Source of the DNA: Eukaryota sp. GEM-RC1
Lineage: Eukaryota
NCBI GenBank assembly: GCA_040285855.1
Contig: JAUFOQ010000003.1
Location: 1,054,001 to 1,118,000 of the forward strand
Length of the DNA stretch: 64,000 nucleotides
Direction: 5' to 3'
Part shown: one piece after another, positions 9,658-53,400 of the stretch
Layout: each line of letters begins with the position of its first letter
Position numbering within the stretch: the stretch's first letter is position 1
Position numbers and translations under genes: made by a program
The notes under the pieces: model-generated
Seen by the model: only the letters and a program-made list of their open reading frames with translations
Told to the model about the DNA's origin: nothing
Database searches by the model: none

Positions 9658-10536
9658 CACTGCGGGTTTGAACTATGTGTACGAGTTTTAATTATCGAAA
9701 AACTGTGTATCAGCTTTACTGTTAATATTAATGATAAAAGTACCTATGTATGGTTCCATGCATTGCCTTTCGACTTTGGGTGAGTTGTTTGATGATGGAC
9801 AGAGGGATCGTATTTCACATTAGGATACGCTACTTATGGATATACTGCCAGATGTGGCCGTGTGTCACACGGATTACTATTTTCCAGACATTGTGTTCGA
9901 GTTAGATGTTCTTTGTTGTTGTTTACAACACATTCTACTTTAAGTACGTACATCCAGTTGCTGCATTCAATTCACGAAGACACAATTATATCGTCTTTCA
10001 GCATTTTGCAGTATCTTTGTACGGAATTTTCGGTTGTTCTACCAAGGAGTTTTAAAATTGATTTGACAATTTGTGTTGAGAATTTGGTAAGAAGTTTAAC
10101 AGATCGTACTGGAAGAGTAAATTTGCTTTTTCGATTTTTAGGTCTATGTATAGATATATTGATTCCATTTTGTCCAAGTTGTTTGGAGGTAACTACTTTT
10201 CGAAATTAGGTAGTTCGTTTGATAATTTGTTTTAATAGTGTTTATTAATTTGTTGTTTTCTTGTTGTGTGTTTTTCTCTGCACGTAAATCCGTTTCTCAT
10301 TGTACTTATTAACTTAGACATTAATAATAGACTCTGGGTCAGTGATACAGTACAATTATGTACTATGGTATATTATAGATTTTAGTTCTTACATCATACA
10401 CACAGTACTACTAGTAGTAGTTGTTCGAATAGAAATAAACAATTAAAAAGTACTGTCGAAACAGCATGAAATTCAAACTTACACAAATTTATTTTAATTA
10501 AAAGGCATTTAGAACAAATAGTTTTCCCCAAATTGT

Positions 10537-11961
10537 CTAATATTCAATTCGCCCACCATCAAACAATTCAAACTCAACTTCTCCAGAACTTAACAAGTAT
10601 AAATACTGAGCAACTCCATGGACAAGCTTACCTAAAGCTTCCCCGTGATTGATATATCCATCGTAGGGATTAATACCAATAAACATTTGATGACTTCCAT
10701 CATGATTCCTATACACCAGTGACGGTCGGGAAACTTCCCCAGGAAAACAGTCAATCACGATACTTTCCTGTTTGGGAACAGTTTTGGAACTAGTTATTCC
10801 AAAAGATTGAATCTCTAATTCCGAATCATTTAAAAATGAATAAACAGTATGAAACCGCGATGGTACAAAGCTTCCAGCAGGCCCGTAAAGAACTGGAGAA
10901 GTAACAGGAACTGCAACATCATGAATTTCTTCTCCCACAAACTGCTTGGCTGCTGATTGTTCCAGTACTATGACAGGACGGTTTGCAGAAACCCAATCAG
11001 TGATTTTAGAGCTTATAATGGGATTTTTCAAGACTCCAGCAAGGATTAACACGTCAATATTGTCCAAGTTGTCCTCGGTGGAAGAGGAATTTCTAATGGT
11101 GAAAACAGCATTGGAATTGCACGAGGAATAGCCCTTGGCCATCGCTTGAACTGTGGACTCAGATGAAGGAAAATACATAAGACAAGAGAGTTTTTTCTTG
11201 GCAGTATACTTTCTAGTAGATTCAACATTAGAAGGTAGAGAGGAAAGAGAAAGACTCTGATTTTCAAGTAAGAGGTCTGATAGTGGAGAAATTAGAAGAG
11301 ATGAAAGGTTATCAATGGTGGAAGAAGGGAGTGAAATCAGATCAGGAGGTGTGATAGAGAGAGATCGCAGTAACCAGTATGAAAGAGCAGGAGTTCGTGG
11401 TTGAAGATCAAGAAGGGATGAAAGAGTATTTTGAGAAAGGATCTGAGGATTGAGAAGATGGACATGATGTTGATGACGTTTTAAATGATCAGCAAACAAA
11501 AGAGAAAGATCACATTCTGGACTAATGTTCAGAGCCTTTTGCAGCAGTTGGGGGTTAGAGAATCTCTCAGCGCTTGAAAGGACAGATAGAATCCAGTTGG
11601 GATCATCTTTGTACTCTTTAAGAGTTCCAATAATATAGAGTTGGAGTGATTCATAGTCAAGAACTGATGCACACTCGAACAGTGCATGAATATTGGATAG
11701 AGTTACTGGTAGAGGATGAGTATAGAGAGTCTTCAGGACGTCGGACAAAATAGAGAACTCAACATGTAGGAGGTCAGAGAGGTCAACGATACTATCTGAA
11801 AGATCTTTGAAAAAGCTGAGCTTTGAACAAACAACAACTTTGTGAAGAGAAATAGTTTGATTCATATAAGACACGGTGAGATCACTGAAGTCTCCATCAA
11901 ACCAAGCTGCTATAGAAACCTGAACACTGAAGGGACGATCTCGCTTAACGCATTCATACAT
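10537..11961 (-). CDS. BTB/POZ-domain protein, paralog 1
   Basis: FSDLTVSY...ISLHKVVVCSKLSFF...VLKTLYT...NIHALFECASVLDYESL is a BTB signature; 474 aa intact. Confidence 0.8.
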   Translation of the reverse strand: MYECVKRDRPFSVQVSIAAWFDGDFSDLTVSYMNQTISLHKVVVCSKLSFFKDLSDSIVDLSDLLHVEFSILSDVLKTLYTHPLPVTLSNIHALFECASVLDYESLQLYIIGTLKEYKDDPNWILSVLSSAERFSNPQLLQKALNISPECDLSLLFADHLKRHQHHVHLLNPQILSQNTLSSLLDLQPRTPALSYWLLRSLSITPPDLISLPSSTIDNLSSLLISPLSDLLLENQSLSLSSLPSNVESTRKYTAKKKLSCLMYFPSSESTVQAMAKGYSSCNSNAVFTIRNSSSTEDNLDNIDVLILAGVLKNPIISSKITDWVSANRPVIVLEQSAAKQFVGEEIHDVAVPVTSPVLYGPAGSFVPSRFHTVYSFLNDSELEIQSFGITSSKTVPKQESIVIDCFPGEVSRPSLVYRNHDGSHQMFIGINPYDGYINHGEALGKLVHGVAQYLYLLSSGEVEFELFDGGRIEY

Positions 11962-12129
11962 TTTGATTGCAATGGAGAAATTGATTAGCGAAATCGATTT
12001 TTGTACTCTCGATTCAGTTATTAAGTTTGGTCTTCATATGAAAAGTCAGTGAGTGACAATTCGTTACATCCATCCATCTACTGATTTACAAGCTGCTGAG
12101 AACTCTGTGAAGATCAATAAAAGTATTAA

Positions 12130-12830
12130 TACAATTATCCATATGATGACTAAGATTGTCAATGTTTTAATGTGCTTTGGAGGGTAGTATGACGATATTG
12201 TAGTCCAAATCCAGAGTAGTTGACAAATTGTTTCAATTTGTGCTTGTGATACCAGTTCTATAGGTACTTTTCGACATGTTGTCAGCCAAAAGAAATTTAT
12301 GGAATTGTGATCTGTTTTACATAAAGCTGATCGTGGTGTCACTTATGAAATGTACAAATCTGATAATCTTAGTTGTAAAATTGAACGTCTTCTGAAATAT
12401 AATAGTGAAAACAACGAGGTTTGATTCTCGGCGTGGTGGCCTAATTGCTCCTTTCCTGGATTCAACTCAAGTTGTGGTTGATTTTACTAAAGTTGGTCCG
12501 TTTGCAAATGTCTACAACGATTCCATATTGAAGGATTCAAACGGTCATCTGGAAAAGGCTGAACAGCGAAAGTGTTCTACTTATGATGATACCTTGAAGA
12601 AACCTAATGAAAATTATTATTATAACTTTTCATTTGTTCCATTTACAATTTCATTTTTTGGTGTTGTTGGTCCAGTAGGTTTCAAATTATTTGGTTATTT
12701 GAATTTATTTGAAAACGGTCTTTACTGGTTCTGCATGATTAATCGAATCGAGTACTGTTTGCTCTTTATAATAAAAACTAATCTGATCTATTTAGACTAT
12801 TTAGGGATTCTAAATCAATATCAAAATTAA
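12130..12830 (+). mobile_element. Degenerate 3' fragment of an RLE-type (CRE-like) non-LTR retrotransposon
   Basis: RGGLIAP..VVVDFTKVGP..LEKAEQRKCSTY..FSFVPFTISFFG is an RLE nuclease remnant. Confidence 0.65.
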
Positions 12831-13679
12831 TCGAACTCATAACTGCATTTGTGAAAATATGTGTATTTGAATTTGTATTCAAAATCTCATTATAAATTCT
12901 CATGCATTCAGAGTCATCAGCGTTGGTTGGTGTTCTTTACTTAATGAAATTGACAATTTTTTTTAAAAATCGAGAAATCAGGCATCAGGGATCGAATTAA
13001 AAATAACAACCTTGTTTATAGTGTCACATTCTATAATATCATAGGTATCATATTATAATTGATTTCTTTTGAATTTTTCTTCAATCTCAGTTCCTCAAAT
13101 CTTTCGAGTTATTAAACTCTCACTAACACCAATAACAATAATTGAATCTAATACAGGGTTATTTGTCAAGACTCGATTTGTCACTTCTAAATCAACAGCC
13201 ACATGAGACATGACTCCAACTGTTTCGTATAATCTCGAAATAGGACTAGTTGTTGATTCAAATTTATCATATACAGTATTTCCATAATCTCATGATGAGA
13301 TTCTCATCTGTATACACTTAGCTAAAATGTTCAGTTTTTGTTTTATTGTCGCCACATCTGACGTCAATGTCTCAATTCAAGGAGACGGTTGAAATAAGAA
13401 TCGAAATACCCAACAGTCGCTTTCATAACCTTCCTCTCCAATAACATTCAATACAATTCTTTCCATACTGTTTACACAATTTACATTTCTGATCAACTTT
13501 GTAGGCGATGATTCAATAATCGCCATAAAAACTTTCATCTTCCTTTTGTGTGTTATGATCTTCTGTTTGATTGAAAGCAGTTTGAAACAGGGGTGTGAAA
13601 ATATGTATTTAAATATATTTTTTGTTATATATTTATTCGAAAATAAAAAAAGATGATCTAATACTCAATGTCATCAAAA

Positions 13680-14760: not shown

Positions 14761-15831
14761 CAGTGATGCGAAATAATTAATTTAATTATAATTAATTAAA
14801 TAAATTCCCTGAGAATTAATTAATTCTAGCCGCTTAGACTTATAATTAATTAATTGTTACACCTTAGAATTATAATTAATTAACGGCAATTACTAGAATT
14901 AATTTTATAATTCCCTTTTCTTCACCTTATGTCGTCTTCTTCAACTCCCAAAGAGATAGCCTTGTTCTTTTGTACCTTTGTTGAACCACAAACCGATTGA
15001 AGTGAAACAAAATCTGCCTGACCGAATGGAAACAGAAATGATTGATGAAATGACTTCAAAATTTGACCATCTGAACTCAATTACAAAGAAGTCGCAAGTT
15101 TCAGAAGTTCCTCTACACAAGGCCAAGAGAATGTTTGACGTTCTACATGAGGAATATCCAGCTATGCGATCTTACACATGTTATAGCCCGGCATCACCAA
15201 TCTTTGAGTCCCCCGAATTTGAAAATGGAGTAATCAAGATACTTGAAGGATATGAGAGAGAACTCACTGATGCAGAAAAGGCATCAGTCAGTAAACTGAA
15301 AAGAATTCCTCCTACTGAAAATGAAAATGAAAACAATGCTCATCTTGTCAAGAGCTTCGACGAAAAACTTGATGACGTCGATACTATTCCAAAAAAACAC
15401 TGCTTCGGAATACTTCGACTTATCATTTATTCCATCAACTTCTAACCAAGTGGAAAGACTATTCAGTCGTGCAAAATTAACTCTTGGTATTTCTTCTTAT
15501 TTATCTAATTATAGGGCAGCTGAGAGGACGTTTACAATCAAAAACGTTAGAGAAACAATTGTTTCTTTTATACAACACTGATTCTTGGAACTTGGATTTA
15601 GTCAAATCAATTGTGAGTAAGAACCCTCATCAGACAACATTAATAAATTCGGCCGAGCTTGTTATAGATGTCGATTCAGAATGATAGTATGTTGATTTTT
15701 GTCGTATGGTGATAAAGAATTAATTGTAATTAATTGCAATTAATTAATTGTTGGCGTGTAGAATTAAAATTGATTAATTGTTGGCCTGTAGAATTAATAA
15801 TTTAATTTAAATTAATTTTTCCACATCACTG
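14761..15831 (+). mobile_element. Internally deleted hAT transposon retaining the transposase C-terminal (dimerization) region
   Basis: TIRs: cagtgatgcgaaataattaatttaa versus the reverse complement of ttaaattaatttttccacatcactg. AT-rich subterminal repeats. Coding remnant EYFDLSFIPSTSNQVERLFSRAKLTL-G-QLRGRL...EKQLFLLYN..W. No TSD found. Confidence 0.8.
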
Positions 15832-16744: not shown

Positions 16745-17667
16745 CAGAAATTCAGCAGAGAAGCATTTTTTCTTTGCCTTTGTGTGTTCGCAAGTTACAG
16801 AAGAAGTTTGTTTTGTTTCACGAAAGCTTGGACTATAAAAACCGTATTAGCTTGGCTAAGACGGAGAGTCCCAGCTTTTTGTGCATTTGTGAATGATATT
16901 TCTTCAAGCTCTGCGTCGTCATTTGTTTCTCGTTTGCCAAGAAAATTTTGTTTTAATCTTAAGGATCATGAATAGCTTATAAACATGAGACTTAGGTTAG
17001 GTTTATGGCCTTCAGGTCTTTTGAAGCATTCTCCATGTCTTTGCGGTCGTTCAAAGGCTTCAAATTTTCATCATTTAGTTAACTGCCATCAATTTATTCA
17101 TTTTCGATCAATAATCCACAACAGTATCCGGGATACATGATTGGATATGTTTAAGGCTAATGGTTTTCATGGAAAAATTGAACCTTTACTTGCTAATCTT
17201 TCTGATCAGCCAAAACTTGATAGAAGTCGTGGTGATTTGATTGGTCCTTGGTTATTTTGTCAGGAAATTATTATGGATTTCACGACTGTTGATCCTTGTA
17301 ATTCAAGATCAATTTCCAAAATTTTTGATGATGATTTTTCTGCTCTTGAAGTGGCTGAAAAAGAAAAAATACCAAGTACTGTCACTTAATTAACCAATTG
17401 AATATTGACTGGTACAATTCTTTTGTGTTTCAACCTTTTGCGATGTCGATATACGGTAATATTGGACCAGCTGCACAAGGTTTTTTAACTTCCTTTGGTA
17501 AATTGTGTTCTGAGTATGGTAAAGCTTTCAATGAAAATTTTTGGTTGAGTAGGTTAACGTTTGCGTTGTTTCGTTCAATGCACAGATATTTTAATTCAAT
17601 TTTAGGTAAGTTGTTCGGTGATGGACAGAAGAATCATAGTTTAGATACTTTAGTTAGTGTCTGTTAG
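16745..17667 (+). mobile_element. RLE-type non-LTR retrotransposon 3' fragment
   Basis: MRLRLGLWP..CLCG..HHLVNC..RSIIHNSIRD..KIEPLL..RGDLIGP..IIMDFTTVDP..LEVAEKEK..FQPFAMSIYGNIGPAA, with stops and frameshifts. Confidence 0.8.
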
Positions 17668-18376
17668 TTATTAATTTCTGCAAATGCATTTATTTCACTG
17701 ACTGATCATAAACCCCGTGTTTTTAACACATGATCAAAACGTTTGTACATCCTATATCTTTACGATTTTTTCGAAATCGTTTTAAACATTTAATGCACTT
17801 TTTCCTAAACGGCAATAGATTGGAAACATCAAAAGGGCATAATTCGTGTTCAAAATGTTTTTCACGTGTTTTACCTCCATCAATGGTTTCTTGTACTTAT
17901 CCTGTTTGGCATGTTCAGAAATATCGAAATGGGAAGGTTTAGACTAAGCATTCTTTAAAGATGACTTTTTACAAACATCCACAGACACCAAATTATATCT
18001 CTGAATTATAAATTATATCTTTCACGATATTTATTGGCACCTATGATGTCTCTGGAATATTCATTCTCATGACTTGTATTAAAGAAAATTAATTGTTTAC
18101 AAGAAATATCACACGATCCGAGTGTCACTTGGATGGTTAATTTGCCACACCGTGTGTTTCGAAAAAATTTTTAAATATTGATAATACAGTACAATTATGT
18201 ACTATGGTATATTATAGATTTTAGTTCTTACATCATACACACAGTACTACTAGTAGTAGTTGTTCGAATAGAAATAACCAATTAAAAAGTACTGTCGAAA
18301 CAGCATGAAATTCAAACTTACACAAATTTATTTTTAATTAAAAGGCATTTAGAACAAATAGTTTTCCCCAAATTGT

Positions 18377-19801
18377 CTAATATTCAATTCGCCCACCATC
18401 AAACAATTCAAACTCAACTTCTCCAGAACTTAACAAGTATAAATACTGAGCAACTCCATGGACAAGCTTACCTAAAGCTTCCCCGTGATTGATATATCCA
18501 TCGTAGGGATTAATACCAATAAACATTTGATGACTTCCATCATGATTCCTATACACCAGTGACGGTCGGGAAACTTCCCCAGGAAAACAGTCAATCACGA
18601 TACTTTCCTGTTTGGGAACAGTTTTGGAACTAGTTATTCCAAAAGATTGAATCTCTAATTCCGAATCATTTAAAAATGAATAAACAGTATGAAACCGCGA
18701 TGGTACAAAGCTTCCAGCAGGGCCGTAAAGAACTGGAGAAGTAACAGGAACTGCAACATCATGAATTTCTTCTCCCACAAACTGCTTGGCTGCTGATTGT
18801 TCCAGTACTATGACAGGACGGTTTGTAGAAACCCAATCAGTGATTTTAGAGCTTATAATGGGATTTTTCAAGACTCCAGCAATGATTAACACGTCAATAT
18901 TGTCCAAGTTGTCCTCGGTGGAAGAGGAATTTCCAATGGTGAAAACAGCATTGGAATTGCACGAGGAATAGCCCTTGGCCATCGCTTGAACTGTGCACTC
19001 AGATGAAGGAAAATATATAAGACAAGAGAGTTTGTTCTTGGCAGTATACTTTCTAGTAGATTCAACATTAGAAGGTAGAGAGGAAAGAGAAAGACTCTGA
19101 TTTTCAAGTAAGAGGTCTGATAGTGGAGAAATTAGAAGAGATGAAAGGTTATCAATGGTGGAAGAAGGGAGTGAAATCAGATCAGGAGGTGTGATAGAGA
19201 GAGATCGCAGTAACCAGTATGAAAGAGCAGGAGTTCGTGGTTGAAGATCAAGAAGGGATGAAAGAGTATTTTGAGAAAGGATCTGAGGATTGAGAAGATG
19301 GACATGATGTTGATGACGTTTTAAATGATCAGCAAACAAAAGAGAAAGATCACATTCTGGACTAATGTTCAGAGCCTTTTGCAGCAGTTGGGGGTTAGAG
19401 AATCTCTCAGCGCTTGAAAGGACAGATAGAATCCAGTTGGGATCATCTTTGTACTCTTTAAGAGTTCCAATAATATAGAGTTGGAGTGATTCATAGTCAA
19501 CAACTGATGCACACTCGAACAGTGCATGAATATTGGATGGAGTTACTGGTAGAGGATGAGTATAGAGAGTCTTCAGGACGTCGGACAAAATAGAGAACTC
19601 AACATGTAGGAGGTCAGAGAGGTCAACGATACTATCTGAAAGATCTTTGAAAAAGCTGAGCTTTGAACAAACAACAACTTTGTGAAGAGAAATAGTTTGA
19701 TTCATATATATAACGGTGAGATCACTGAAGTCACTATCAAACCAAGCGGCCATAGAAACCTGAACACTGAAGGGACGAACTCGCTTAACACACTCATACA
19801 T
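18377..19801 (-). CDS. BTB/POZ-domain protein, paralog 2
   Basis: 474 aa; 12 aa differences from paralog 1 by manual comparison. Confidence 0.8.
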   Translation of the reverse strand: MYECVKRVRPFSVQVSMAAWFDSDFSDLTVIYMNQTISLHKVVVCSKLSFFKDLSDSIVDLSDLLHVEFSILSDVLKTLYTHPLPVTPSNIHALFECASVVDYESLQLYIIGTLKEYKDDPNWILSVLSSAERFSNPQLLQKALNISPECDLSLLFADHLKRHQHHVHLLNPQILSQNTLSSLLDLQPRTPALSYWLLRSLSITPPDLISLPSSTIDNLSSLLISPLSDLLLENQSLSLSSLPSNVESTRKYTAKNKLSCLIYFPSSECTVQAMAKGYSSCNSNAVFTIGNSSSTEDNLDNIDVLIIAGVLKNPIISSKITDWVSTNRPVIVLEQSAAKQFVGEEIHDVAVPVTSPVLYGPAGSFVPSRFHTVYSFLNDSELEIQSFGITSSKTVPKQESIVIDCFPGEVSRPSLVYRNHDGSHQMFIGINPYDGYINHGEALGKLVHGVAQYLYLLSSGEVEFELFDGGRIEY

Positions 19802-19825
19802 TTTGATAACAATAGAGCAATTGAG

Positions 19826-19903
19826 CAGTGAACGCTAACACGTAACAAAATTCAATCTAACGCGTGTTACGTGTCAGGCCGTGTTACGTGTTAGCGTTCA
19901 CTA
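19826..19903. mobile_element. 78-bp hAT-like micro-MITE
   Basis: Perfect 21-bp IR agtgaacgctaacacgtaaca (19827-19847 / 19882-19902); 8-bp TSD caattgag (19818-19825, 19904-19911); absent from copy 1. Confidence 0.85.
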
Positions 19904-19919
19904 CAATTGAGTAGTGAAA

Positions 19920-22900
19920 GGGGCTTCGACCAAAATGCCAATTCTCCACAACATAAGTGATCGGACACTGGAAAGAAAAAATCTCCCAAAACTAATCAAC
20001 CTGCTGGAAAAGAAATAAATCTTCCGATTCTGAACCTTCTACACGTCTGTTATCTCGTCGTAAAACTCTAGAAGTAACTAATAAAATTTCATCAAGTTAT
20101 TCTTCTTCATCTGACACATCCGTCAAAAACTCTAAAGCACGACGACTAGAACGAAAACCAAAAAGTGTCATTCGTCAGAAATTCATCGTCCACAAGAACA
20201 AGTTTCTAAACGTCAACAGAGACTGTATAATCAATCTAGTGGTTGTACAAAATTCCCGAAAACTGACGAAGAATGTCAAAGTTCGCAAGTAGTTGAAGGT
20301 TCAACTGATTCTTTGCATGAATTTCCTGAAATTCCAGTTGTTAAAGGAAAAAAGGAAAAAGAATCAAGAACTCCATTTATTGACATTGCAACTGATACTG
20401 TTGTTGATGACTCCCCTTCCTACAGTTTTTATAATTGATATTGAAAGAAGAAACATCAATGAGAGAATTCCTACACGAGTGAACAAAGAATTGAATGAAC
20501 ATCGTAGAACGGAAAAGAGTCTTTGAAACAGAGAAGATTGTTAATGAATGATTTTGAGAAAGAAGCTCACGACCTTGATTTTCTCGCAGATCAACAAATC
20601 ATCATGATCTCTGTCATTATTGCAAAATTACAATCCAATGGTGAGTTACAATTTGACAGCTCAATCGTCCTTTACACTGACTACAATTATAAAATCAAAT
20701 TCAGTGAATCAGAAACACCAGCTTTTAAATTAGATCTTTTGGACTTCCCAAATGAAAATGAATTATTGGTTACGTACGCTAACATTGTTAGTCAATATAA
20801 ACCAAATGCTTTTATTGGCCATAATATTTTCAATTTTGATTTGCCCATAATTGACAATAAAATGTGGGCTCTTGACCTTCCTCTTTTAACAAATCCAAAT
20901 CCAATTGAGTTACCTTTACATAGTAGATGGCTGGATATCATAAAAGATCATAATGGTTTTACAGTTTTGGATACCTTCTTATTTGCAAAGAAGCGTATCG
21001 GTCTCAAGTATGGTTGTAGTCTAGCCAATTTATCTTGGAATTTACTTTCTGAACCTAAATTGAAATTGGATAAAGACTTGGACCACTTACTCCCGGTTGA
21101 TTGTTTAAGAAATGATAAAAGAATGAAAACTCTAATCAACTACTGTCTTCATGATTCAATTTTGGCGTTTAAATTGTTTATTTTATTTCAAAAAGACAAA
21201 ATTGTGTTTCAATCATGGGCTTCTATCAAAACTTCAGTTGTTAGTGTGGTAAAACATCAAGAAGTTCAAGATGCCATGCTTTTAGGATCTCAGTTCTACA
21301 ATGCGTTAAGACAACAGACTACAATGTGTGTTAAAGAATATCTGTTGGCTCGCTATCGTCTTGGACAAGATTTGTCTAAGTTTGATTACAAGTTGTTTTA
21401 TCATACAATGCTTTCAATTAGAAATCTTTCATCTGAAGTTCATGAATTCAAAATTTACAACAATTATCCTATCAGAACAATTGATACAGACCTTCGTGAT
21501 TTTGTTGCTGGAGAAGGAATCTATACTGCCAATTCAAACTACCCCGGATATAAGCACTGTGTAACTGATACATTTGGCACATGTCATTTACCAGAACTTG
21601 ATTTTGATCACATCAGTAGAGCTTTTGAATACACCACTCAGTATGAAATGTGGCCTGCGTTTGAACTAAATATTCGTCGCAATTATGAGTTGTACATTAA
21701 AAGATTTATCAATACAGTAATGGGTAAGAAAGAGTTTGAAAAGGGAATGAAGAAGAAACGTAATTTAGTTTTAGGTCCAGAACTTGCAGGACTAACAGGA
21801 CGTGAAGCTCAAAAATTCACTAGTTACTTCAGATTTCGCTTAAAGATATTGAAAGATCAGATTTTGTATCGACCTAGAGATGAAGCCTTACAGTATATTA
21901 ATTCTTTTAACTCTGCAACCCACCCTGAAAATATTAAGTTTATTGATGAAGTTTCCAAAGTTTTTAATGATGATTTCAGTATGTTAATATTTGAACAGAT
22001 TAATTCTCTAATGGCTGATAAAATTCCAGAATTACTTCAAAGATTTAACATCATATTTCCTACTTCAATCACTACTAACGACAATGAAACTGTAGACGTC
22101 CATAATTTACTTTACACAGTTCAGGAGTATCCACTTCATTTTCTAAGAAATTCTCTTCAAATCTCAGATTACTTGGAATCAAAGGGTGCTAAGTTGTATA
22201 ATGTAATTCCTCTAAGTTTAGAGAATACTCCTTGTTTTTTCCCAATAGATACTAGAACTCTTTGGGGACTGGCTAAGCACTGTTTTGGATATAAGAATAA
22301 TGATAAGAAGATTGGTCCTTTACATTCAAAAGTGACTAATTACATGACTCAAGACCAGATCCAAAACATGACCCATTCTCAACAACAAGATTACTGGAAA
22401 AGATGGTTTAACTGTGATGACAGAAGTTTTCACAAAGCCAATTTTGAATTCAACAACTATGCTGTAACTGATGGAATTTCGATTTGTTTTCAATTTGTGA
22501 GAAAGGATTTGAAAGGAATGAAATGTAAACCTGATTCAAGTAAAGCTTCAGTAAAAGCACAATATTTCAATGAATGTGATAGGTCTGATTTTATTTCTAA
22601 ACAAATGGTTTATGTGGACATTGGAAAGAGAGATATGCTACAACTTGCCTCTAAATCAAATAGGGAAACTCAAAATCCTCTAAAGAAATACAACTTCTTA
22701 CGATTGACATATGCTGAGTGGTCTAGAGTTTCAAGAAAGCATAAAAGAATCCACCAGTACCTTGTTAGAAGGAGATCAGGTACTACTACCGTGAGAGCAG
22801 GTGATGATAATCCAATAACTGTGACAATGAATATTGAGAAATGGAACACTTGGTTAAGTGAAGAACAGGATTCTAAAACTGTTAATTACACTAAATTTAG

Positions 22901-23633
22901 AAAGTTTATTCTGGCTAAATGTATTCACTACAATGCAACTAAAGACTTCTATGCTTTGCATATATGGAGGATTCACAAAATCCAAAATCATGTCCATAAG
23001 CAAAAACAGAGTCTAAATTGGTTAACAGCATTGTAAAAACTTTTGGTAAGCGTGACAAAATTGTACTATGTATTGGTGTTTTAGGTCAGAAGCCAATGTC
23101 CAACTTAAAACACAGTCCACCATCCAGAACTAAGACTTGGACTTCATTCTTTCAGAGAAACGGTTTTTTAACAGTGATGAATGATGAGAGGAACACTTCG
23201 TCCAAGTGTCCAGAATGTCATGAAGATGTTTTTGAAACTTCCATTGAGGTTGTCAACCCAAAGCCCAAATCAAGAGAGAAAAGAGAATGGATCCACCCTC
23301 ATGGCTTACTAGAGTGTAAGAGCAAACATTGTCTGGGAGAAGTCAAGAAGCGATTGAAAGGGGGAAAAGAAAAGGGCACACAGTGCCCACTCAAATGTAT
23401 TGGAATCGAAACAAGATGGCTTGTTTGAACATGATGAACATGTTCGAACATTGGATGAATGGTAGTGATGATAGAGTAGAGTATCTGAGTAGTAAATAGT
23501 TTTATTTTTGTTAGCTGGCTGGTGAAACCCGGCCATATTTGGTTAATTCCACAACATTGAACTTCATAAATGTCACTTTTTCATATAATGCAAATCACTT
23601 CAAGTCAAAATTGAAGATAAGTCACGATAAGAC
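19920..23633 (+). mobile_element. Fanzor-carrying insertion with no recognisable transposase gene
   Basis: Sequence absent from duplication copy 1 between 'tagcgaaa' (~11986-11993) and 'cgatt..tactctcg' (~11995-12011). Ends are approximate. Confidence 0.75.
20292..23499 (+). CDS. PolB-type DEDDy 3'-5' exonuclease::Fanzor1 (TnpB-like RuvC) fusion; split by indels at homopolymers (~20413, ~20515, ~23004, ~23365); N-terminus may extend to ~19935
   Basis: Exonuclease: IIDIE (20437-20445), GHNIFNFD (D at 20838), YCLHD (21141-21155). Fanzor: IKTSVVSVV, NIRRNY..YIKRFIN, VIPL....PCFFPIDT, TDGISICF, RuvC-I VDIG (22617), KQK(T)ESKLVN, IVLCIG, DERNTSSKCPEC, HGLLECKSKHC, WNRNKMACLNM...DRVEYL*. Confidence 0.88.
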
Positions 23634-23655
23634 ACGATTACTCTCGTCGGTTATT
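23480..23655 (+). ncRNA. Candidate Fanzor omegaRNA scaffold plus guide
   Basis: GC-rich stem-loop ttagct-ggctgg-tgaaac-ccggcc-atattt-ggttaa (23511-23546) just after the stop codon. A second hairpin cttcaa-gtcaaaa-ttgaag lies at ~23598-23616. The position is typical for Fanzor omegaRNA; boundaries are unknown. Confidence 0.45.
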
Positions 23656-23799
23656 AAGTTTGGTCTTCATATGAAAAGTCAATAAGTAACAATTCGTTGC
23701 ATCCATCCATTTACTGATTTACAATTTTAGAGAAGTCGGTGAAGAACTTTTTTTAGGTAACACTATTTATGTTTATTGACAACAACACTGTGAAGAACA

Positions 23800-24500
23800 C
23801 TAAAAGTATTTCCTTCTGTTTTTATCCATATGATGAATAATGTTGCCCCCGTATTAATGTGCTTTGGAGGTTATTGTGAAGACATTGTAATAGCCAAAAA
23901 TTTTAATTTGTCTTTGTGGCAACAGTTGTACAGCCACCTTTCGACATGTTGTGAGTCGAAGGAATTTTTTTTCAATGGTGATCTGTTTTACACAATGCTG
24001 TTCGTGATGTTACTTATGAAATGTTCAAATCTTAACCTAGTTGTAAAATTGAACCTCTTCTGGAAAAGATAGTGACAACCTCGGATCGATTCACTTCGTG
24101 GTGACCTAATTGCTCCTTTCCTGGATTCATCTCAAGTTGTGGTTGATTTTACTGAAGTTGACCCCTTTGCAAAAGTCTACAAAGACTCCATTTTAAATGA
24201 TTCAAATGGTCTTCTTGTAAAGGATGAACATCGTAAGTGATTTGCCTATGATGATACTTTGAAGAAACTTAATGAACACTTTAATTATAACTTTTCATTT
24301 GTTGCATTTGCAATTTCATCTTTTGGTGATGTTGCTCCAGTAGATTTCAAATTATTTGGTTGTTTATATTTTTGTGAGAACGGTCTTTAATGGTTCTACA
24401 TGATTAATCGAATCGAATAGTGGTTGATGTCTATAATAAAAACTAAACTTATCTATTTAGACTATTTAGAGATTCAAAATCAATATCAAAATTGACCGAA
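23800..24500 (+). mobile_element. Degenerate RLE non-LTR fragment (paralog of 12130-12830)
   Basis: RGDLIAPFLDSSQVVVDFTEVDPF at ~24098-24168, with stops; lies within the duplication. Confidence 0.65.
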
Positions 24501-25426
24501 CTCGTAACTCCATTTGTCAAAATATGTATATTTGAATCAGTATTCAAAATCTCATTATAAATTCGTTGCCAGCTTTTCAGAGTCATCAGTGTTGGTTTTT
24601 GTAACGTTCATCTCTACTTAGTGAAATTGTCATTTGATTGTAAAAATCGACAAAATACAACTTTGGTTAATGTGGTGGATGTTAGGTTCGGTTCAACACG
24701 TGTTGCAAAAATTTTGAACAGGAGAACAGAATAACTGACTTTAAGATCAACCAACGAAAAAACACATCTTCTTTTCACTCATGTTACACCCGAACCAAGT
24801 TGATAAACTGGAACTGACTTTCAATGATTCCAGAACTGATAACATGAAGAGCTCATCAATAATCCATACATTTAAGTAAACTTTGGAGTACACTTGAATT
24901 TTCTACTTTTATTCAATTCAGTTGAATCAAGTACAGCAGAACTTTACCCAAATTCATTGAAGTGACATAGAAGAATGACATAAGGCGGCTCCGAACATAG
25001 GGTGGATGTGTTTTCACAGAATCTGTTTGTTCCTCACATTCTATAATAACATAAGTATAAAGAACGAAATATATATATACCTTTGAATTTGTCTTCAATC
25101 TCAGTTCCTGGAATCTTTCGAATTTTTATAATCTCACTATCACCAATCACATTAATTGCTTCTACTACAGAGTTAGTTGTCAAGACTTGATTTGTCATTT
25201 CTAAATCAACAGCCACATGAGACATGACTCCAACTGTTTCGTATGATCTCGAAATAGGAGTAGTCATTGATTCACATTTATCTTTTAATTCCATAATCTC
25301 ATCTGTGTGCCTTTAACTAAAAAAAGTCATTTTTTGTTTAATTGTTTACTCAAACAAATCACACAAATGAAATACTACTTTTCATTAATTTAATTGGAGA
25401 AGAAAGAGTTTATTTGCAACAATAAA

Positions 25427-25663
25427 TTAATACATACGTTTCTTGCAACTAACAACATGACGAAATGTGGCTGTAGATCGGTTATCGCAAACACAGATTG
25501 AATTATTTAGCAAACCACTAGGGAATAAACCTAAACGAAGACGCATATTTTGCTTCCAAGCATCATTGTTCAAATGTAAACCAAAAGGTCTAGGTTGTTG
25601 AGTGATGAAGCTAGAACATTGTTGAATGTCACATAAAAAAAGCTGCAAAGACGGGATTATCAA
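25427..25663 (-). mobile_element. RLE non-LTR fragment (Zn knuckle region)
   Basis: WKQNMRLRLGLFP...CVCD...FRHVVSC, same family as 16745-17667. Confidence 0.65.
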
Positions 25664-39049: not shown

Positions 39050-40778
39050 ATCTCAAATTCATGTCTCAATGCAAAGAGACGGTTCAAAATTGAATCAAAA
39101 TACCTAAACAATGCTTTGAAAAGGGAAAACGACAACCTTCCTCTCCAGTAACTTTCATTATAATTCTTTCCATACTGCTTACACAATTTGCCAAAATCTG
39201 TGAGAAATTGTTGACCGAAGCAACCAAACGTACCATAAAGAGAAATAGCAAAAGGATGGAAACAAAAGGATTGTGTCGGCGAGAATTCATCTCGGAAATT
39301 AATTCGCCATCACAATCTAATTTTTTCCTTTCAGCATTCAAGAGCTCAATAGTTTTCGTCTACAATTTTGTTAACGGAAGTTGAGTTACAAGGATCAACC
39401 GTAGTAAAGTCCATAATTATAGCTTGAGATGACAACCAAGGACCAATCAAATCACCTCTACTCTTATCCCTCATAATTGAGTCAGACAAAGTATTTAAAA
39501 CTGGTTCGATTTTCCCATGAAAACCATTGCTCTTAAACAATTCTAAACATTGTTCACGTAAACTGTTGTGAATAATTGATCTTAAATGAATAAACTTATG
39601 ACAGTTGACCACATGATGGAAAGACGCTAAAAAGAACCACACACACAAGTAGACTAGGACTGTGCAGGTTTGGGTTTCAAAAGTTCCAAACCCCAAACCT
39701 GGTTTAGGTTTGGTTTGGTTTTCCAAAAATGGGTTTAGGTTTGGTTTGGTTTTTAAGTTTTAGGTTTAGATTCAGCTAGGTTTTTAAGTTTTAGGTTTAG
39801 GTTCAAATCTAGTAAACCCGATATGTATTATGAATTAAAAATAAACTGTAGTTTAGTGGAACACTGTCAAAAAAAAGAGAGATGTTTATTCGGCACCCAA
39901 TAAGGTAACCTTCCTTCAAACTATGAAATTGTAAAAACAAACAAATAATACTAAGATTAAATCCAAACGACTTCATCACCACCCGGTAAAAGATTACGTT
40001 TATCAACATTAACCTTCACACCAAACTTGTACAATTTCTCAATTAATCTAGAGAAATAGAAAGGCATATTCCGATATATGGAAAACACTATACGGTTTTT
40101 CCATTCAGCCATTCTAAACTTACGCTTCTTTTCTTTACACAATTCTTCGAAATCCTTGAAAAATAAAGTTGTTCTTACGGTAGTACTAGATAAGCTTTAT
40201 TATTAGTGCTCGAGTATCACAAACAACTACTAGTGGAACTACTTTTCTTTTTCAAAAAATCGTCTCCAATCCTTAAGACTGACTAGTGCTTGGATACTTT
40301 CATCAGACAGAGAAGCTCTATATTCTGTAACTGTGCTCTGTCTTCACTCATCACTTCAATTTCAGAAGAGTTCTCGTCAATAGAAGCGTCAAGATCGTTC
40401 ATATATAATGTAAGAGTCAGAGGGTTTTTGAAATTAAATGTGTTTCATTTTCCTACAGTTCTGAAGCTAAAGGTTTAGGTTTAGTTTTATTAGGTTTTGG
40501 TTTAGGTTTGGTTTGGTTTAGTAAGAAAAGGTTTAGGTTTGGTTTGGTTTAGTAAAAAAAGGTTTAGGTTCAGCTAGGTGTAGTAAAAAAAGGTTTGGTT
40601 TGAAACCTAAACCCGAACCTGCACAGTCCTAAAGTAGACTTTTGAAGGAGACCAACATGCCATAAACCTAACCTCAAACGAATGTTGATAAGCCATTCAT
40701 GATCTTTTAACCATAAAACGATTGGTTGACACAGAAATTGTGAATGTCATTGAAGAAACTAGTAAAATGTCTGGAACA
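39050..40778 (-). mobile_element. RLE non-LTR fragment split by the 39655-40631 element
   Basis: RLRLGLWHVG (40640-40690) resumes after the TSD as CVC..FHHVVNCHKFIHLRSIIHNSLRE..KIEPVL..RGDLIGPW..IIMDFTTVDP. Confidence 0.8.
39655..40631. mobile_element. 977-bp hAT-like non-autonomous element carrying a LINE 3'-end fragment
   Basis: 23-bp TIR taggactgtgcaggtt(t/c)gggttt with 1 mismatch; perfect 8-bp TSD aagtagac (39647-39654, 40632-40639); GGTTTA/GGTTTG subterminal repeats. Confidence 0.9.
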
Positions 40779-50400: not shown

Positions 50401-53400
50401 TAACCAAGTACTTCAGAGTACTGATCAACTTCAAATATATCTGAAACAACAAGAGTTCCACCCACAACACGAGCCTCAGCTCCAATAAGTTTGGTGATTT
50501 TCTCTGTTACAAAGAAGCCATTGTTCACAGTGACTAGATTGAAGACTGTTGTTGGACATTGATCTAAGAACCTGGAATCAGTTTCTTTAATCAAATGACC
50601 ATGTACGTATAAGTGGGAATCATCATCACCGATAAGTTGTACTTCAGCAGGATTATTAATCAAGAAGGTAGAGTGATCAGTTACATTAATAACACCATTA
50701 ACAAGAGTAGTGTCACTAGCAGACCACGTGGCATCTCCAAACAAGAGTACAAGATGATCATCAATAATTCTTGGATTCATTGATCCAGTTGCATCTAACA
50801 AAGAAGTAGCAGATGAAGTAACAATGGTAGTTGAAGTTGATAAATGAGAAGACAATTTACCTCCCGACCAACGGTACAAAGAATTGACATAGACATCTGA
50901 GTCACCAGATCGATGACCTCCAAAGTGATAAAAGTTTCTGACTTGAATGGGAATGGTACAAGAAACATTGAATAATGAGTTTTGTCTAAGATAAAGATCA
51001 ATCAGATCAACATTGGCATCGACAGATTTAACTATTTCAAATACTGATGTAGATGTTAAATCAGCGGAACCATTTACCACAGTAAAAACGACATTATCAT
51101 CAACAAGGAAGTTTGAACTGCCAGTCATAGTCAAGTCCAATAGTGTTGAATCAACAATTGAATCATCCTTAATATGAATGGAAGAAGAACCACTCATGGA
51201 AACGTCAGCAACTTGATTGACAACGACATGATCATTGACATTAACTTGGCCATTCAAGGTAGTTGTAAGAGATGAAATCAAATGGATTGTAGCATGAGAG
51301 TCAGCAATCAAATGACCAGAGACCTTTGCAGTTAATTCATCTACAACACAATTGGATGAAACGTGAAGAGTTCCTGTGATCACGTTGGCGTTGATGTATG
51401 CGACTCTACAATCAGAATTGAAATAGGCAAGGGCGTCGTCATGATTGATAGTTATTTCTCCGTATACTTCATAGAATCCAGTGACATTTAGAAGAGATGA
51501 GGATTCTTTCAAGGTGATAAGTGCATCACTAGTTCCATTTAGAATACTAGTATCATCGATAAAGACAAAATCTTCAATGTACAAATGACCATCATAAACT
51601 GAAGCAAGACCATCTGAAACAATTACAGGCTTCTGAGTATAAACATTTCCTTGTTTGATAAGATAAGCACCATCTACAAAAGTGGGACAATTATGGATGA
51701 AATCACCAGAATTATCTTTAATCAAGTGACCATGTACGTATAAGTGGGAATTATCATCACCAATAAGTCGTACTTGAGAAGGATTATCAATCAAGAAGGT
51801 AGAGTGATCAGTTACATTAATAACACCATTAACAAGAGTAGTGTCACTAGCAGACCACGTGGCATCTCCAAACAAGAGTACAAGATGATCATCAATAATT
51901 CTTGGATTCATTGATCCAGTTGCATCTAACAAAGAAGTAGCAAATGAAGTAACAATGGTAGTTGAAGTTGATAAATGAGAAGACAATTTACCTCCCGACC
52001 AACGGTACAAAGAATTGACATAGACATCTGAGTCACCAGATCGATGACCTCCAAAGTGATAAAAGTTTCTGACTTGAATGGGAATGGTACAAGAAACATT
52101 GAACAATGAGTTTTGTCTAAGATAAAGATCAATCAGATCAACATTGGCATCGACAGATTTAACTATTTCAAATACTGATGTAGATGTTAAATCAGCGGAA
52201 CCATTTACCACAGTAAAAACAACATTATCATCAACAAGGAAGTTTGAACTGCCAGTCATAGTCAAGTCCAATAGTGTTGAATCAACAATTGAATCATCCT
52301 TAATATGAATGGAAGAAGAACCACTCATGGAAACGTCAGCAACTTGATTGACAACGACATGATCATTGACATTAACTTGGCCATTCAAGGTAGTTGTGAG
52401 AGATGAAATCAAATGGATTGTAGCATGAGAGTCAGCAATCAAATGACCAGAGACCTTTGCAGTAATTTCATCTACAACACAATTGGATGAAATGTGAAGA
52501 GTTCCTTTGATCACGTTGGCATTAATGTATGCGATTTTACAATCTGAATTGAAATAGGCAAGGGCATCGTCATGATTGACAGTGATTTCTCCGTATACTT
52601 CGTAGAATCCAGTGACATTTAGAAGAGATGAGGATTCTTTCAAGGTGATAAGTGCATCACTAGTTCCATTTAGAATACTGGTATCATCAATAAAGACAAA
52701 ATCTTCAATGAACAAATGACCATCATAAACTGAAGCAAGACCATCTGGAAACAATTACAGGCTTCTGAGTATAAACATTTCCTTTTTGATAAGATAAGCA
52801 CCATCTACAAAAGTGGGACAATTATGGACGAAATTGCCAGAATTATCTTTAATCAAGTGACCATGTACGTATAAGTTGGAATCATCATCACCAATAAGCC
52901 GTACTTGAGAAGGATTATCAATCAAAAAGGTAGAGTGATCAGTTACATTAATGACACCATTAACAAGAGTAGTGTCACTAGCAGACCACGTGGCATCTCC
53001 AAACAAGAGTACAAGATGATCATCAATAATTCTTGGATTCATTGATCCAGTTGCATCTAACAAAGAAGTAGCAGATGAAGTAACAATGGTAGTTGAAGTT
53101 GATGAATGAGAAGACAATTTACCTCCCGACCAACGGTACAAAGAATTGACATAGACATCTGAGTCACCAGATCGATGACCTCCAAAGTGATAAAAGTTTC
53201 TGACTTGAATGGGAATGGTACAAGAAACATTGAATAATGAGTTTTGTCTAAGATAAAGATCAATCAGATCAACATTAGCATCGACAGATTTAACTATTTC
53301 AAATACTGATGTAGATGTTAAATCAGCGGAACCATTTACCACAGTAAAAACAACATTATCATCAACAAGGAAGTTTGAACTGCCAGTCATAGTCAAGTCC

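What the first reader, a model, noticed from the sequence alone, without database searches (positions are those of the whole stretch)
20292..23499. Fanzor1 RNA-guided nuclease fused to a PolB-type DEDDy 3'-5' exonuclease
Seen: one uninterrupted 837-codon frame (20523-23036) joins a proofreading-exonuclease domain (ExoII GHNIFNFD, ExoIII YCLHD) to a Fanzor1 body (IKTS start, PIDT, TDG, RuvC-I D). ExoI DIE lies just upstream across an A-run shift. RuvC-II (DERNTS), the CxxC/CxxxxC zinc finger and RuvC-III follow across two further one-base shifts. There is no polymerase palm domain, so only the exonuclease was captured. Known: Fanzors are TnpB-derived omegaRNA-guided DNases, and DEDDy domains trim 3' ends. 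Inference: this could be a natural RNA-guided nuclease-exonuclease that resects cut ends (biasing repair to homing or deletion) or trims its own omegaRNA 3' end. I do not know a description of this fusion but cannot confirm novelty.
Basis: partly seen in the sequence, partly recalled or inferred. Interest (0 to 1): 0.92.

Follow-up and report, generated by a model that had tools for sequence, protein, structure and literature searches.

The report
Fanzor nuclease with built-in proofreading exonuclease
A multi-copy gene family in three soda-lake protist genomes joins a Fanzor-type nuclease (the eukaryotic cousin of Cas12) directly to the proofreading exonuclease of a DNA polymerase, so one predicted RNA-guided protein would cut DNA and then likely trim the cut end itself; this natural pairing was not found in the papers searched.

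Summary
Confirmed, and larger than one locus. The window holds a frameshifted copy of a Fanzor1 whose N-terminus is a family-B polymerase 3'-5' exonuclease without a polymerase domain. I found 76 gene models of the family, 71 labelled with three Skoliomonas (metamonad) isolates. All 28 models that reach upstream of the Fanzor start carry the exonuclease at a fixed spacing; 0 of 128 other Fanzor1 representatives do. The four DEDD acids are invariant across seven subfamilies at 20-41% identity. An AlphaFold model of a complete relative gives a PolB exonuclease (Z about 16) abutting a whole Fanzor1 (Z 26). The RuvC triad is D-E-N, as in active GtFz1. Several relatives add a 2A-like peptide and a SENP8-like protease upstream; this copy lacks them. 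A paralogous empty site bounds the insert at about 19920-23633, with a candidate omegaRNA after the stop. Most likely role (inferred, untested): chewing back the roughly 16-nt 3' tail left between TAM and cut, so that the element is copied into empty sites. That is trimming, not 5' resection. No activity, expression, transposase or TAM is shown.

The parts
19920..23633 (+). Whole insert (exonuclease-Fanzor element copy), about 3.7 kb; ends uncertain by a few bases; no TIR or target duplication recognised; probably 5'-incomplete (no 2A motif)
   Evidence: Removing it and the adjacent MITE joins the flanks into a continuous match to the paralogous site near 11992-12004. The TIR-like match is at chance level, 473 of 2000 random segments.
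19920..20415 (+). Basic, Ser/Lys/Arg-rich linker coding region, broken into several frames; 20226-20411 is 90% identical to sister model P0008
   Evidence: No 2A motif in any frame.
20416..21200 (+). PolB-type DEDDy 3'-5' exonuclease domain: ExoI DIE 20437-20445, ExoII 20817-20840, ExoIII 21141-21155; one-base shift at 20513-20516
   Evidence: PF03104 E 6e-12; family profile vs Pol delta E 2.5e-11; model of relative P0179, residues 130-381, Z 15-16 to Pol alpha, delta, epsilon and II.
21201..23499 (+). Fanzor1 body (WED, REC, RuvC, zinc finger): RuvC-I D at 22617, RuvC-II E at 23186, zinc-finger Cys pairs at 23207-23218 and 23315-23332, RuvC-III N at 23410; shifts at 23002-23006 and 23360-23373; stop at 23497-23499
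   Evidence: Family profile vs PpFz1 E 1e-35, SpuFz1 3e-33, GtFz1 1e-9; model residues 383-1096 vs SpuFz1 18-631, Z 26, rmsd 3.0 over 573 residues; coordinates.
23516..23535 (+). Candidate omegaRNA stem-loop 1: a 7-bp hairpin 16 nt after the stop codon
   Evidence: Pair probabilities 0.69-1.0; 13 of 1500 random 41-nt window segments fold as well. Not significant against its own shuffles, z -1.4. Seven pairs is the SL1 length in three Fz1 structures.
23500..23650 (+). Candidate omegaRNA: scaffold to about 23633 with three further weak hairpins, then about 15 nt of flank as guide (predicted only)
   Evidence: The whole-region fold is not better than shuffles (z -0.76).

Best explanation
This is a frameshifted copy of a multi-copy Fanzor1 family whose protein begins with a fused polymerase-type proofreading exonuclease, and the intact protein likely cuts an element-free site under RNA guidance and then likely chews back the short 3' DNA tail left at the cut, which would help the element be copied into that site. 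Shown: the fusion, its fixed junction, conserved catalytic residues in both domains, many copies in three genomes, and an insertion relative to an empty paralogous site. From the literature: Fanzor1 cuts the non-target strand 14-17 nt beyond the TAM, and family-B proofreading domains remove 3' tails in T4 intron homing and in yeast gene conversion. Inferred: an omegaRNA is made from the 3' end plus flank; RuvC (D-E-N) cuts; the TAM-side 3' end carries about 16 nt that do not match the donor's left junction; the tethered exonuclease removes them so that the end can prime or complete copying of the element.
For: Fusion: 28 of 28 family models that extend upstream of the Fanzor start carry the exonuclease, with 25 residues from ExoIII Asp to the WED strand in all 28. 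0 of 128 other Fanzor1 representatives hit the exonuclease profile at E<0.01. Constraint: the four acids are among 20 invariant columns of 216 across seven subfamily representatives (hypergeometric p 5.5e-5) at 20-41% pairwise identity. Co-inheritance: exonuclease and body trees share three sister pairs, Mantel p 0.002; each half forms one clade. Fold: pLDDT 79.5, pTM 0.72; exonuclease 130-381 abuts Fanzor 383-1096. RuvC: D and E kept; Asn at RuvC-III in 29 of 31 models matches active GtFz1, and D606N raises SpuFz1 activity (PMC11423790). Cut positions: PMC10432273. Homing model: PMC13565253. PolB exonuclease in T4 intron homing: PMC2988022, PMC12153337. Pol delta chews back 3' ends up to about 40 nt and can excise non-homologous tails: PMC9477423.
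Against: No activity, omegaRNA, TAM or expression is shown. No transposase, TIR or target duplication was found, so the excision step that restorative homing needs is unproven. Homing has experimental support for bacterial TnpB and IscB, not for any Fanzor, in the review read. Host Rad1-Rad10 and Pol delta already remove such tails in yeast, so a private enzyme is not obviously needed, and ordinary Fanzors persist without one. TREX1, TREX2 and T5 exonuclease fusions all lowered editing by MmeFz2 (PMC12923547). One subfamily (P0049, P0191-P0193) lacks the ExoIII Tyr. This copy has four frameshifts and a T-to-R change next to ExoI and may be dead. The position of the exonuclease active site relative to the DNA was not determined.
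Confidence: 0.45

Rival explanations
1. Cut-and-destroy: the exonuclease chews the cut ends so that they cannot be rejoined cleanly. The output is target deletion or degradation (of empty sites, competing elements or viruses), not cleaner homing.
For: Engineered exonuclease fusions to Cas9 and Cas12f raise mutagenic editing (PMC13370227 and PMC12337685, search listings and abstract starts only). A non-specific 3'-5' enzyme has no obvious stop signal at the TAM (inference).
Against: Deleting the empty site would remove the substrate for re-insertion and is hard to reconcile with multi-copy spread. The one flank pair seen shows only small indels at the junction (n=1, diverged paralog).
Confidence: 0.2
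2. The exonuclease serves the element's mobility or protection in a step independent of the Fanzor cut (tidying transposon ends or intermediates, or clearing DNA that would alert the host), and is fused only because the element expresses one polyprotein.
For: Relatives are polyprotein-like, with a 2A-like motif in 10 models and a SENP8-like protease. Separate DEDD nucleases occur as accessories of P, piggyBac and LTR elements (PMC3627910, PMC6338049).
Against: The 2A-like motif and the protease vary in presence and order, whereas the exonuclease-Fanzor junction has no linker and a constant length in 28 of 28 models. A passenger could have been released by 2A, and it is not.
Confidence: 0.17
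3. The exonuclease matures the 3' end of the element's own omegaRNA, trimming the read-through transcript to a guide of about 15 nt.
For: DEDD enzymes include RNases (recalled). Fanzor guides end 14-15 nt into the flank and need 3' processing (PMC13565253).
Against: The closest sequences and folds are DNA-polymerase proofreading domains. Fz1 omegaRNAs were recovered from heterologous yeast expression of proteins that lack such a domain (Table S3). The domain is attached at the WED N-terminus, which holds the start of the guide, not its 3' end (geometry inferred).
Confidence: 0.08
4. RuvC is weak or dead, and the protein is an RNA-guided binder that delivers the exonuclease to existing nicks, gaps or R-loops.
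For: The third RuvC acid is replaced family-wide: 29 N, 1 S and 1 D of 31 models, against D in 103 of 109 other Fanzors.
Against: RuvC-I D and RuvC-II E are kept, and D-E-N is active in GtFz1 and hyperactive when made in SpuFz1.
Confidence: 0.07
5. The fusion is an assembly or gene-model artefact, or a one-off dead chimera.
For: Most models are fragments; only 4 of 76 run from ExoI to RuvC-III (after discarding two false motif matches). Some models may splice across frameshifts (P0022 lacks 8 residues present in P0025). DNA of other copies could not be read.
Against: The junction lies inside one stop-free frame of the window's own DNA and recurs in three independent assemblies and at least seven subfamilies with conserved catalytic residues.
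Confidence: 0.03

Closest known systems
Fanzor1 nucleases SpuFz1 (PDB 8GKH, 9CEZ), PpFz1 (9CF0) and GtFz1 (9CER)
   Same: Whole WED-REC-RuvC-zinc-finger fold (Z 21-26); RuvC-II Glu six residues before the finger; candidate 7-bp SL1 after the stop; D-E-N triad as in GtFz1.
   Different: About 250-residue N-terminal exonuclease fused without a linker; about 1,000-1,280 aa against the usual 600-700; upstream 2A-like peptide and protease in relatives; no TIR or transposase found.
Family-B DNA polymerase proofreading domain (PF03104; Pol delta, alpha, epsilon, II; T4 gp43)
   Same: ExoI, II and III motifs and fold; PolB exonucleases trim 3' ends in T4 intron homing and yeast recombination.
   Different: No N-terminal, palm, finger or thumb domains; a helical insertion after ExoI; long stem branch, with the donor unresolved (sister to Pol delta not rejected, p-AU 0.10).
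Engineered nuclease-exonuclease fusions (TREX2-SpCas9, T5-CasMINI, TREX and T5 on MmeFz2)
   Same: An RNA-guided cutter tethered to an exonuclease.
   Different: Those are artificial and linker-joined, and on Fanzor2 they reduced activity; this one is natural, linkerless and conserved.
Transposon accessory modules: DEDD nucleases in P, piggyBac and LTR elements; 2A-like peptides of non-LTR retrotransposons
   Same: Mobile elements carrying a 3'-5' exonuclease or a 2A-like motif.
   Different: There they accompany a transposase or reverse transcriptase; none is reported fused to a TnpB or Fanzor in the passages read.

Membership tests
Fanzor1 | C-terminal motif D-X(125-275)-[TS][TS]-XX-C4 zinc finger-X(5-50)-RD (Bao and Jurka) | tested here: met
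   D, TS-SK-C, four Cys and R are present at the right spacing. The last residue is N instead of D, a variant also seen in GtFz1 and in 5 of 109 other representatives.
Fanzor1 | [quoted passage not shown] | tested here: met
   NDERNTSSKCPEC at 23180-23218.
Fanzor1 | Complete WED-REC-RuvC-TNB fold of Fanzor1 size | tested here: met
   Model of relative P0179: 573 residues aligned to SpuFz1, Z 26.2, rmsd 3.0; Foldseek E 3e-28. The window's main frame is 33% identical to P0179; the window's own protein was not modelled well (one search was a sister copy, pLDDT 40).
Fanzor1 | omegaRNA at the element's 3' end, conserved among copies, with a 7-bp SL1 | tested here: inconclusive
   A 7-bp hairpin is at the expected place, but there is no DNA from other copies and no RNA data.
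Fanzor1 | RNA-guided, TAM-dependent DNA cleavage | not testable with these tools
   Needs biochemistry.
Fanzor1 | Carried by a DNA transposon with recognisable ends or transposase | tested here: inconclusive
   Multi-copy and inserted relative to an empty paralog, but the TIR-like match is at chance level and no transposase domain appeared in the Pfam scans.
PolB-type DEDDy 3'-5' exonuclease | ExoI DxE, ExoII NxxxF/YD and ExoIII YxxxD | tested here: met
   All present in the window. Acids kept in 17 of 17, 20 of 20 and 22 of 22 aligned models covering each motif, out of 36 aligned; the ExoIII Tyr is absent in one subfamily.
PolB-type DEDDy 3'-5' exonuclease | PolB exonuclease fold | tested here: met
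   Z 15.2-16.1, about 190 residues aligned, rmsd 3.0-3.6, to many family-B polymerases, all tied.
PolB-type DEDDy 3'-5' exonuclease | Metal-dependent 3'-5' activity on single-stranded DNA | not testable with these tools
   Needs biochemistry.
Family-B DNA polymerase | Polymerase palm domain (PF00136) | tested here: not met
   No PF00136 hit on the window's frame or on any family model scanned; the Fanzor fold starts two residues after the exonuclease ends.
2A (StopGo) peptide, in relatives | GD(V/I)ExNPGP motif | tested here: inconclusive
   Canonical in P0008, P0022, P0025 and P0187; E-to-H in six others, a change with very low activity in Crack elements; absent from the window. The motif alone does not prove skipping.
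Ulp1/SENP (C48) protease, in relatives | HW...QxNxxDCG catalytic motifs | tested here: met
   His and Cys motifs aligned in five models; profile vs SENP8 E 4e-10; Pfam C48 below cut-off. Not present in the window.

The most novel reading that the evidence does not exclude
A self-contained RNA-guided homing machine: the first natural TnpB/Cas12-lineage effector with its own DNA end-processing enzyme, which cuts the empty site, trims the 3' flap back to the TAM and so biases repair toward copying, and which is released from a virus-style polyprotein (2A skipping plus a deNEDDylase-like protease) encoded by an undescribed kind of eukaryotic mobile element.
Probability: 0.4. Interest if true: 0.92.

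Novelty: new variant of a known kind. Interest (0 to 1): 0.8.

Why it matters
What Fanzors do in their hosts is open: homing has been shown for bacterial TnpB but not for a Fanzor. A lineage that welded a proofreading exonuclease onto the nuclease, and kept it active-looking through deep divergence, points to the step after the cut as the one under selection. It gives a direct test: a two-residue exonuclease knockout should change DNA ends and repair outcome. It is also a natural version of a design that engineers keep trying, and that failed on Fanzor2, so it could show how to couple cutting with end trimming. The 2A-like peptide and protease suggest an undescribed element type in metamonads.

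Tried and rejected
No whole genome is held for the window, so DNA of other copies, end alignments and dN/dS were not available. The look-up of sequencing runs: none was listed, and no RNA holder was listed; this is no evidence either way. Metagenome scan with exonuclease patterns: 1 of 166 candidate stretches confirmed, an ordinary full-length PolB gene. Viral scan: 0 of 138 confirmed. A viral scan with the deep alignment could not run. The 3' hairpin pattern had 0 matches in prokaryotic genomes. The first fold (P0012, 7 sequences) was unusable, pLDDT 40. ESM Atlas gave only a Fanzor-like cluster at 0.75, a lead. Rejected: TIR between 19920 and 23521-23532 (473 of 2000 random segments score as well); a degraded 2A at 19996 (score 27 against background 23); nuclease-dead reading of RuvC-III Asn; a specific donor for the exonuclease (best tree places it beside probable giant-virus-like PolBs at 50/49 support, label recalled; Pol delta not rejected; 11 rows were left out of that tree); the DEAH helicase on P0178 as part of the element (absent from its three cluster mates). 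Literature searches for a prior description and term look-ups for exonuclease in five Fanzor/TnpB surveys found none; their supplements were not read.
Full report
1. The observation. The frame 20508-23036 is stop-free for 842 residues. It hits the PolB exonuclease family PF03104 at E 6e-12 and runs from ExoII and ExoIII straight into the Fanzor motifs, ending after RuvC-I. ExoI lies upstream, and RuvC-II, the zinc finger and RuvC-III downstream, in other frames. Comparison with sister gene models shows four one-base shifts, all in homopolymer runs. The segments are 90-97% identical to sister models P0008 and P0012. At the last shift, 5 of the 6 sister models that reach it are also out of frame. 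The assemblies holding those sisters were built from Nanopore reads with Illumina correction (bioRxiv 2023.05.03.539051, passages), so sequencing error in repeats is the likely cause (inference); decay cannot be excluded without reads. Two substitutions set this copy apart from its sisters: DIET to DIER (Thr in 17 of 17 other models covering ExoI) and IGD to IGV.

2. A family, not a one-off. The window's protein heads a 90% cluster of 18 members; 15 were listed, and the 14 besides the window's own are labelled Eukaryota sp. GEM-RC1. Three homologue searches, one profile search of 1.84 billion representatives (2,428 hits at E<=0.001, best 150 seen) and three cluster look-ups gave 76 models: the window's own, 15 labelled GEM-RC1, 18 TZLM1-RC, 38 TZLM3-RCL, and 4 not looked up. 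PMC11603281 (passages) names these isolates as Skoliomonas, free-living anaerobic flagellates of soda lakes. Of the 76, 34 contain the Fanzor N-terminal segment. The 28 that extend upstream of it all carry the exonuclease; the other 6 start at an internal Met. ExoIII Asp lies exactly 25 residues before the first WED strand in 28 of 28. None of the 128 other Fanzor1 representatives hits the exonuclease profile at E<0.01, while 66 of them hit the profile of the segment just after the junction, which confirms where the Fanzor starts. In the search of longer proteins with the exonuclease profile, 6 of 47 hits were family members and the other 41 carry a polymerase domain. Four models (P0022, P0029, P0178, P0179; two species) run from ExoI to RuvC-III. 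They are gene models and may hide predicted introns.

3. Both domains look maintained. Across seven subfamily representatives the exonuclease is 20-41% identical, similar to the Fanzor N-terminal body. Only 20 of 216 ungapped columns are invariant, and they include all four catalytic acids (p 5.5e-5, treating columns as independent). One subfamily lacks the ExoIII Tyr. Trees of exonuclease and body for eight members share three well-supported sister pairs, with unresolved or conflicting deep branches (Mantel p 0.002). The Fanzor halves form one clade of 13 against 70 of the other representatives (FastTree support 1.0), and the exonucleases one clade (100/100), so a single capture followed by joint divergence is the simplest reading. 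The donor polymerase is unresolved: Pol delta gives the best profile score (E 2.5e-11), structural scores are tied among Pol alpha, delta, epsilon and II, and a sister position to Pol delta is neither preferred nor rejected (p-AU 0.10). RuvC-I Asp and RuvC-II Glu are kept. RuvC-III is Asn in 29 of 31 models, against Asp in 103 of 109 other Fanzors. PMC11423790 (passages) shows that GtFz1 is active with Asn there and that D606N raises SpuFz1 activity.

4. Structure. AlphaFold2 of P0179 with a 127-sequence alignment gave pLDDT 79.5 and pTM 0.72, with a weaker stretch at residues 317-350 inside the exonuclease. Residues 130-381 align to PolB exonuclease domains (Z 15-16) and residues 383-1096 to SpuFz1 18-631 (Z 26.2, rmsd 3.0, 573 residues). 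There is no linker and no room for a polymerase domain. Where the exonuclease site sits relative to bound DNA could not be read from these outputs.

5. Upstream modules in relatives. A scan of the 190 proteins then held found a D(V/I)xxNPGP motif in 8, all family members; two more appeared later. Four are canonical 2A-like motifs; six have His for Glu, a change with very low skipping in Crack elements (PMC3708506, passages). Five TZLM3-RCL models have a protease between the motif and the exonuclease, best matching SENP8 (E 4e-10); in P0025 the protease end precedes the motif. The window has neither, so this copy is probably 5'-incomplete.

6. The element in the window. A BTB-domain gene is present twice (10345-11992 and 18184-19832, 98%), each followed by a related stretch (12004-12977 and 23639-24654, 77%). 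Removing 19920-23633 and a small inverted-repeat element joins the flanks into a continuous match to the first copy. No terminal repeat above chance or target duplication is evident, and no transposase was found. A 7-bp hairpin starts 16 nt after the stop (23516-23535). SL1 has seven pairs in all three Fz1 structures (section 5 of PMC11423790), and the arms resemble those of the SpuFz1 RNA in its Table S3 by eye. This is a candidate only.

7. Mechanism. SpuFz1 cuts the non-target strand after base 16-17 and the target strand after base 20-21 from the TAM; GtFz1 cuts after 14-17 and 14-16 (PMC10432273, passages). In the homing model (PMC13565253, passages and sections 15 and 20) the nuclease cuts an element-free allele, which is repaired from an element-bearing copy. 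The TAM-side 3' end then carries about 16 nt of right flank that do not match the donor's left junction and must be removed (my inference from the geometry). Family-B proofreading domains do this elsewhere: T4 gp43 exonuclease and DexA in td intron homing (PMC2988022, PMC12153337, passages), and Pol delta, which chews back invading 3' ends up to about 40 nt and can excise non-homologous tails (PMC9477423, passages). I put 0.45 on this role. Against it: hosts have such activities, ordinary Fanzors manage without one, excision of this element is not shown, and exonuclease fusions hurt MmeFz2 editing (PMC12923547, passages). Rivals: cut-and-destroy 0.2, independent accessory role 0.17, omegaRNA trimming 0.08, guided delivery with weak RuvC 0.07, artefact 0.03. 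That the fusion itself is real and selected I put at about 0.95.

8. Novelty. Full-text searches returned only engineered fusions. The word exonuclease does not occur in the main text of PMC10432273, PMC10711439, PMC10691335, PMC10530073, PMC3627910, PMC11423790 or PMC13565253. Their supplements, apart from one table, and subscription journals were not seen. DEDD nucleases are known as separate transposon accessories. This scan's earlier notes hold no look-alike; three loosely parallel notes were not tested. Verdict: a new variant of Fanzor1, real and conserved, with an untested but testable mechanism. Interest 0.8.

Noticed in passing
window 19826-19903: A 78-bp element with 21-bp near-perfect terminal inverted repeats, flanked by an 8-bp direct repeat CAATTGAG (19818-19825 and 19904-19911); fold z -8. 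Looks like a hAT-type MITE (label recalled), inserted 8 bp from the Fanzor element's left end.
   Followed up: partly
window 10345-11992 and 18184-19832: Duplicated BTB/POZ-domain gene, 98% identical, minus strand; the MITE and the Fanzor element sit about 70-170 bp upstream of the second copy's likely start at 19753.
   Followed up: partly
window 12004-12977, 17065-17603, 23639-24654, 25440-25511, 39086-39622: Several decayed copies of a region whose translation resembles the Cys/His finger and restriction-like endonuclease end of non-LTR retrotransposons (motifs recalled; no Pfam hit).
   Followed up: no
P0183, P0184, P0185 versus P0049 (TZLM3-RCL models): Two subfamilies whose exonuclease-Fanzor parts are under 30% identical share a Ser-rich region upstream of the 2A-like motif at 70% or more, which suggests module swapping between elements.
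   Followed up: no
P0178 (2027 aa) and P0028: Gene models that join a DEAH-box helicase or a DM10 fragment to the family's sequence; probably chimeric models at insertion sites.
   Followed up: no
window 41481-64000, minus strand: A very long repetitive gene in several frames (longest 3758 aa) with tandem units of about 1131 bp, 98% identical, at 50584-54889.
   Followed up: no
window 14960-15581: Short frames ending in IPSTSNQVERLFS, resembling a decayed transposase C-terminal dimerisation motif of the hAT type (label recalled).
   Followed up: no
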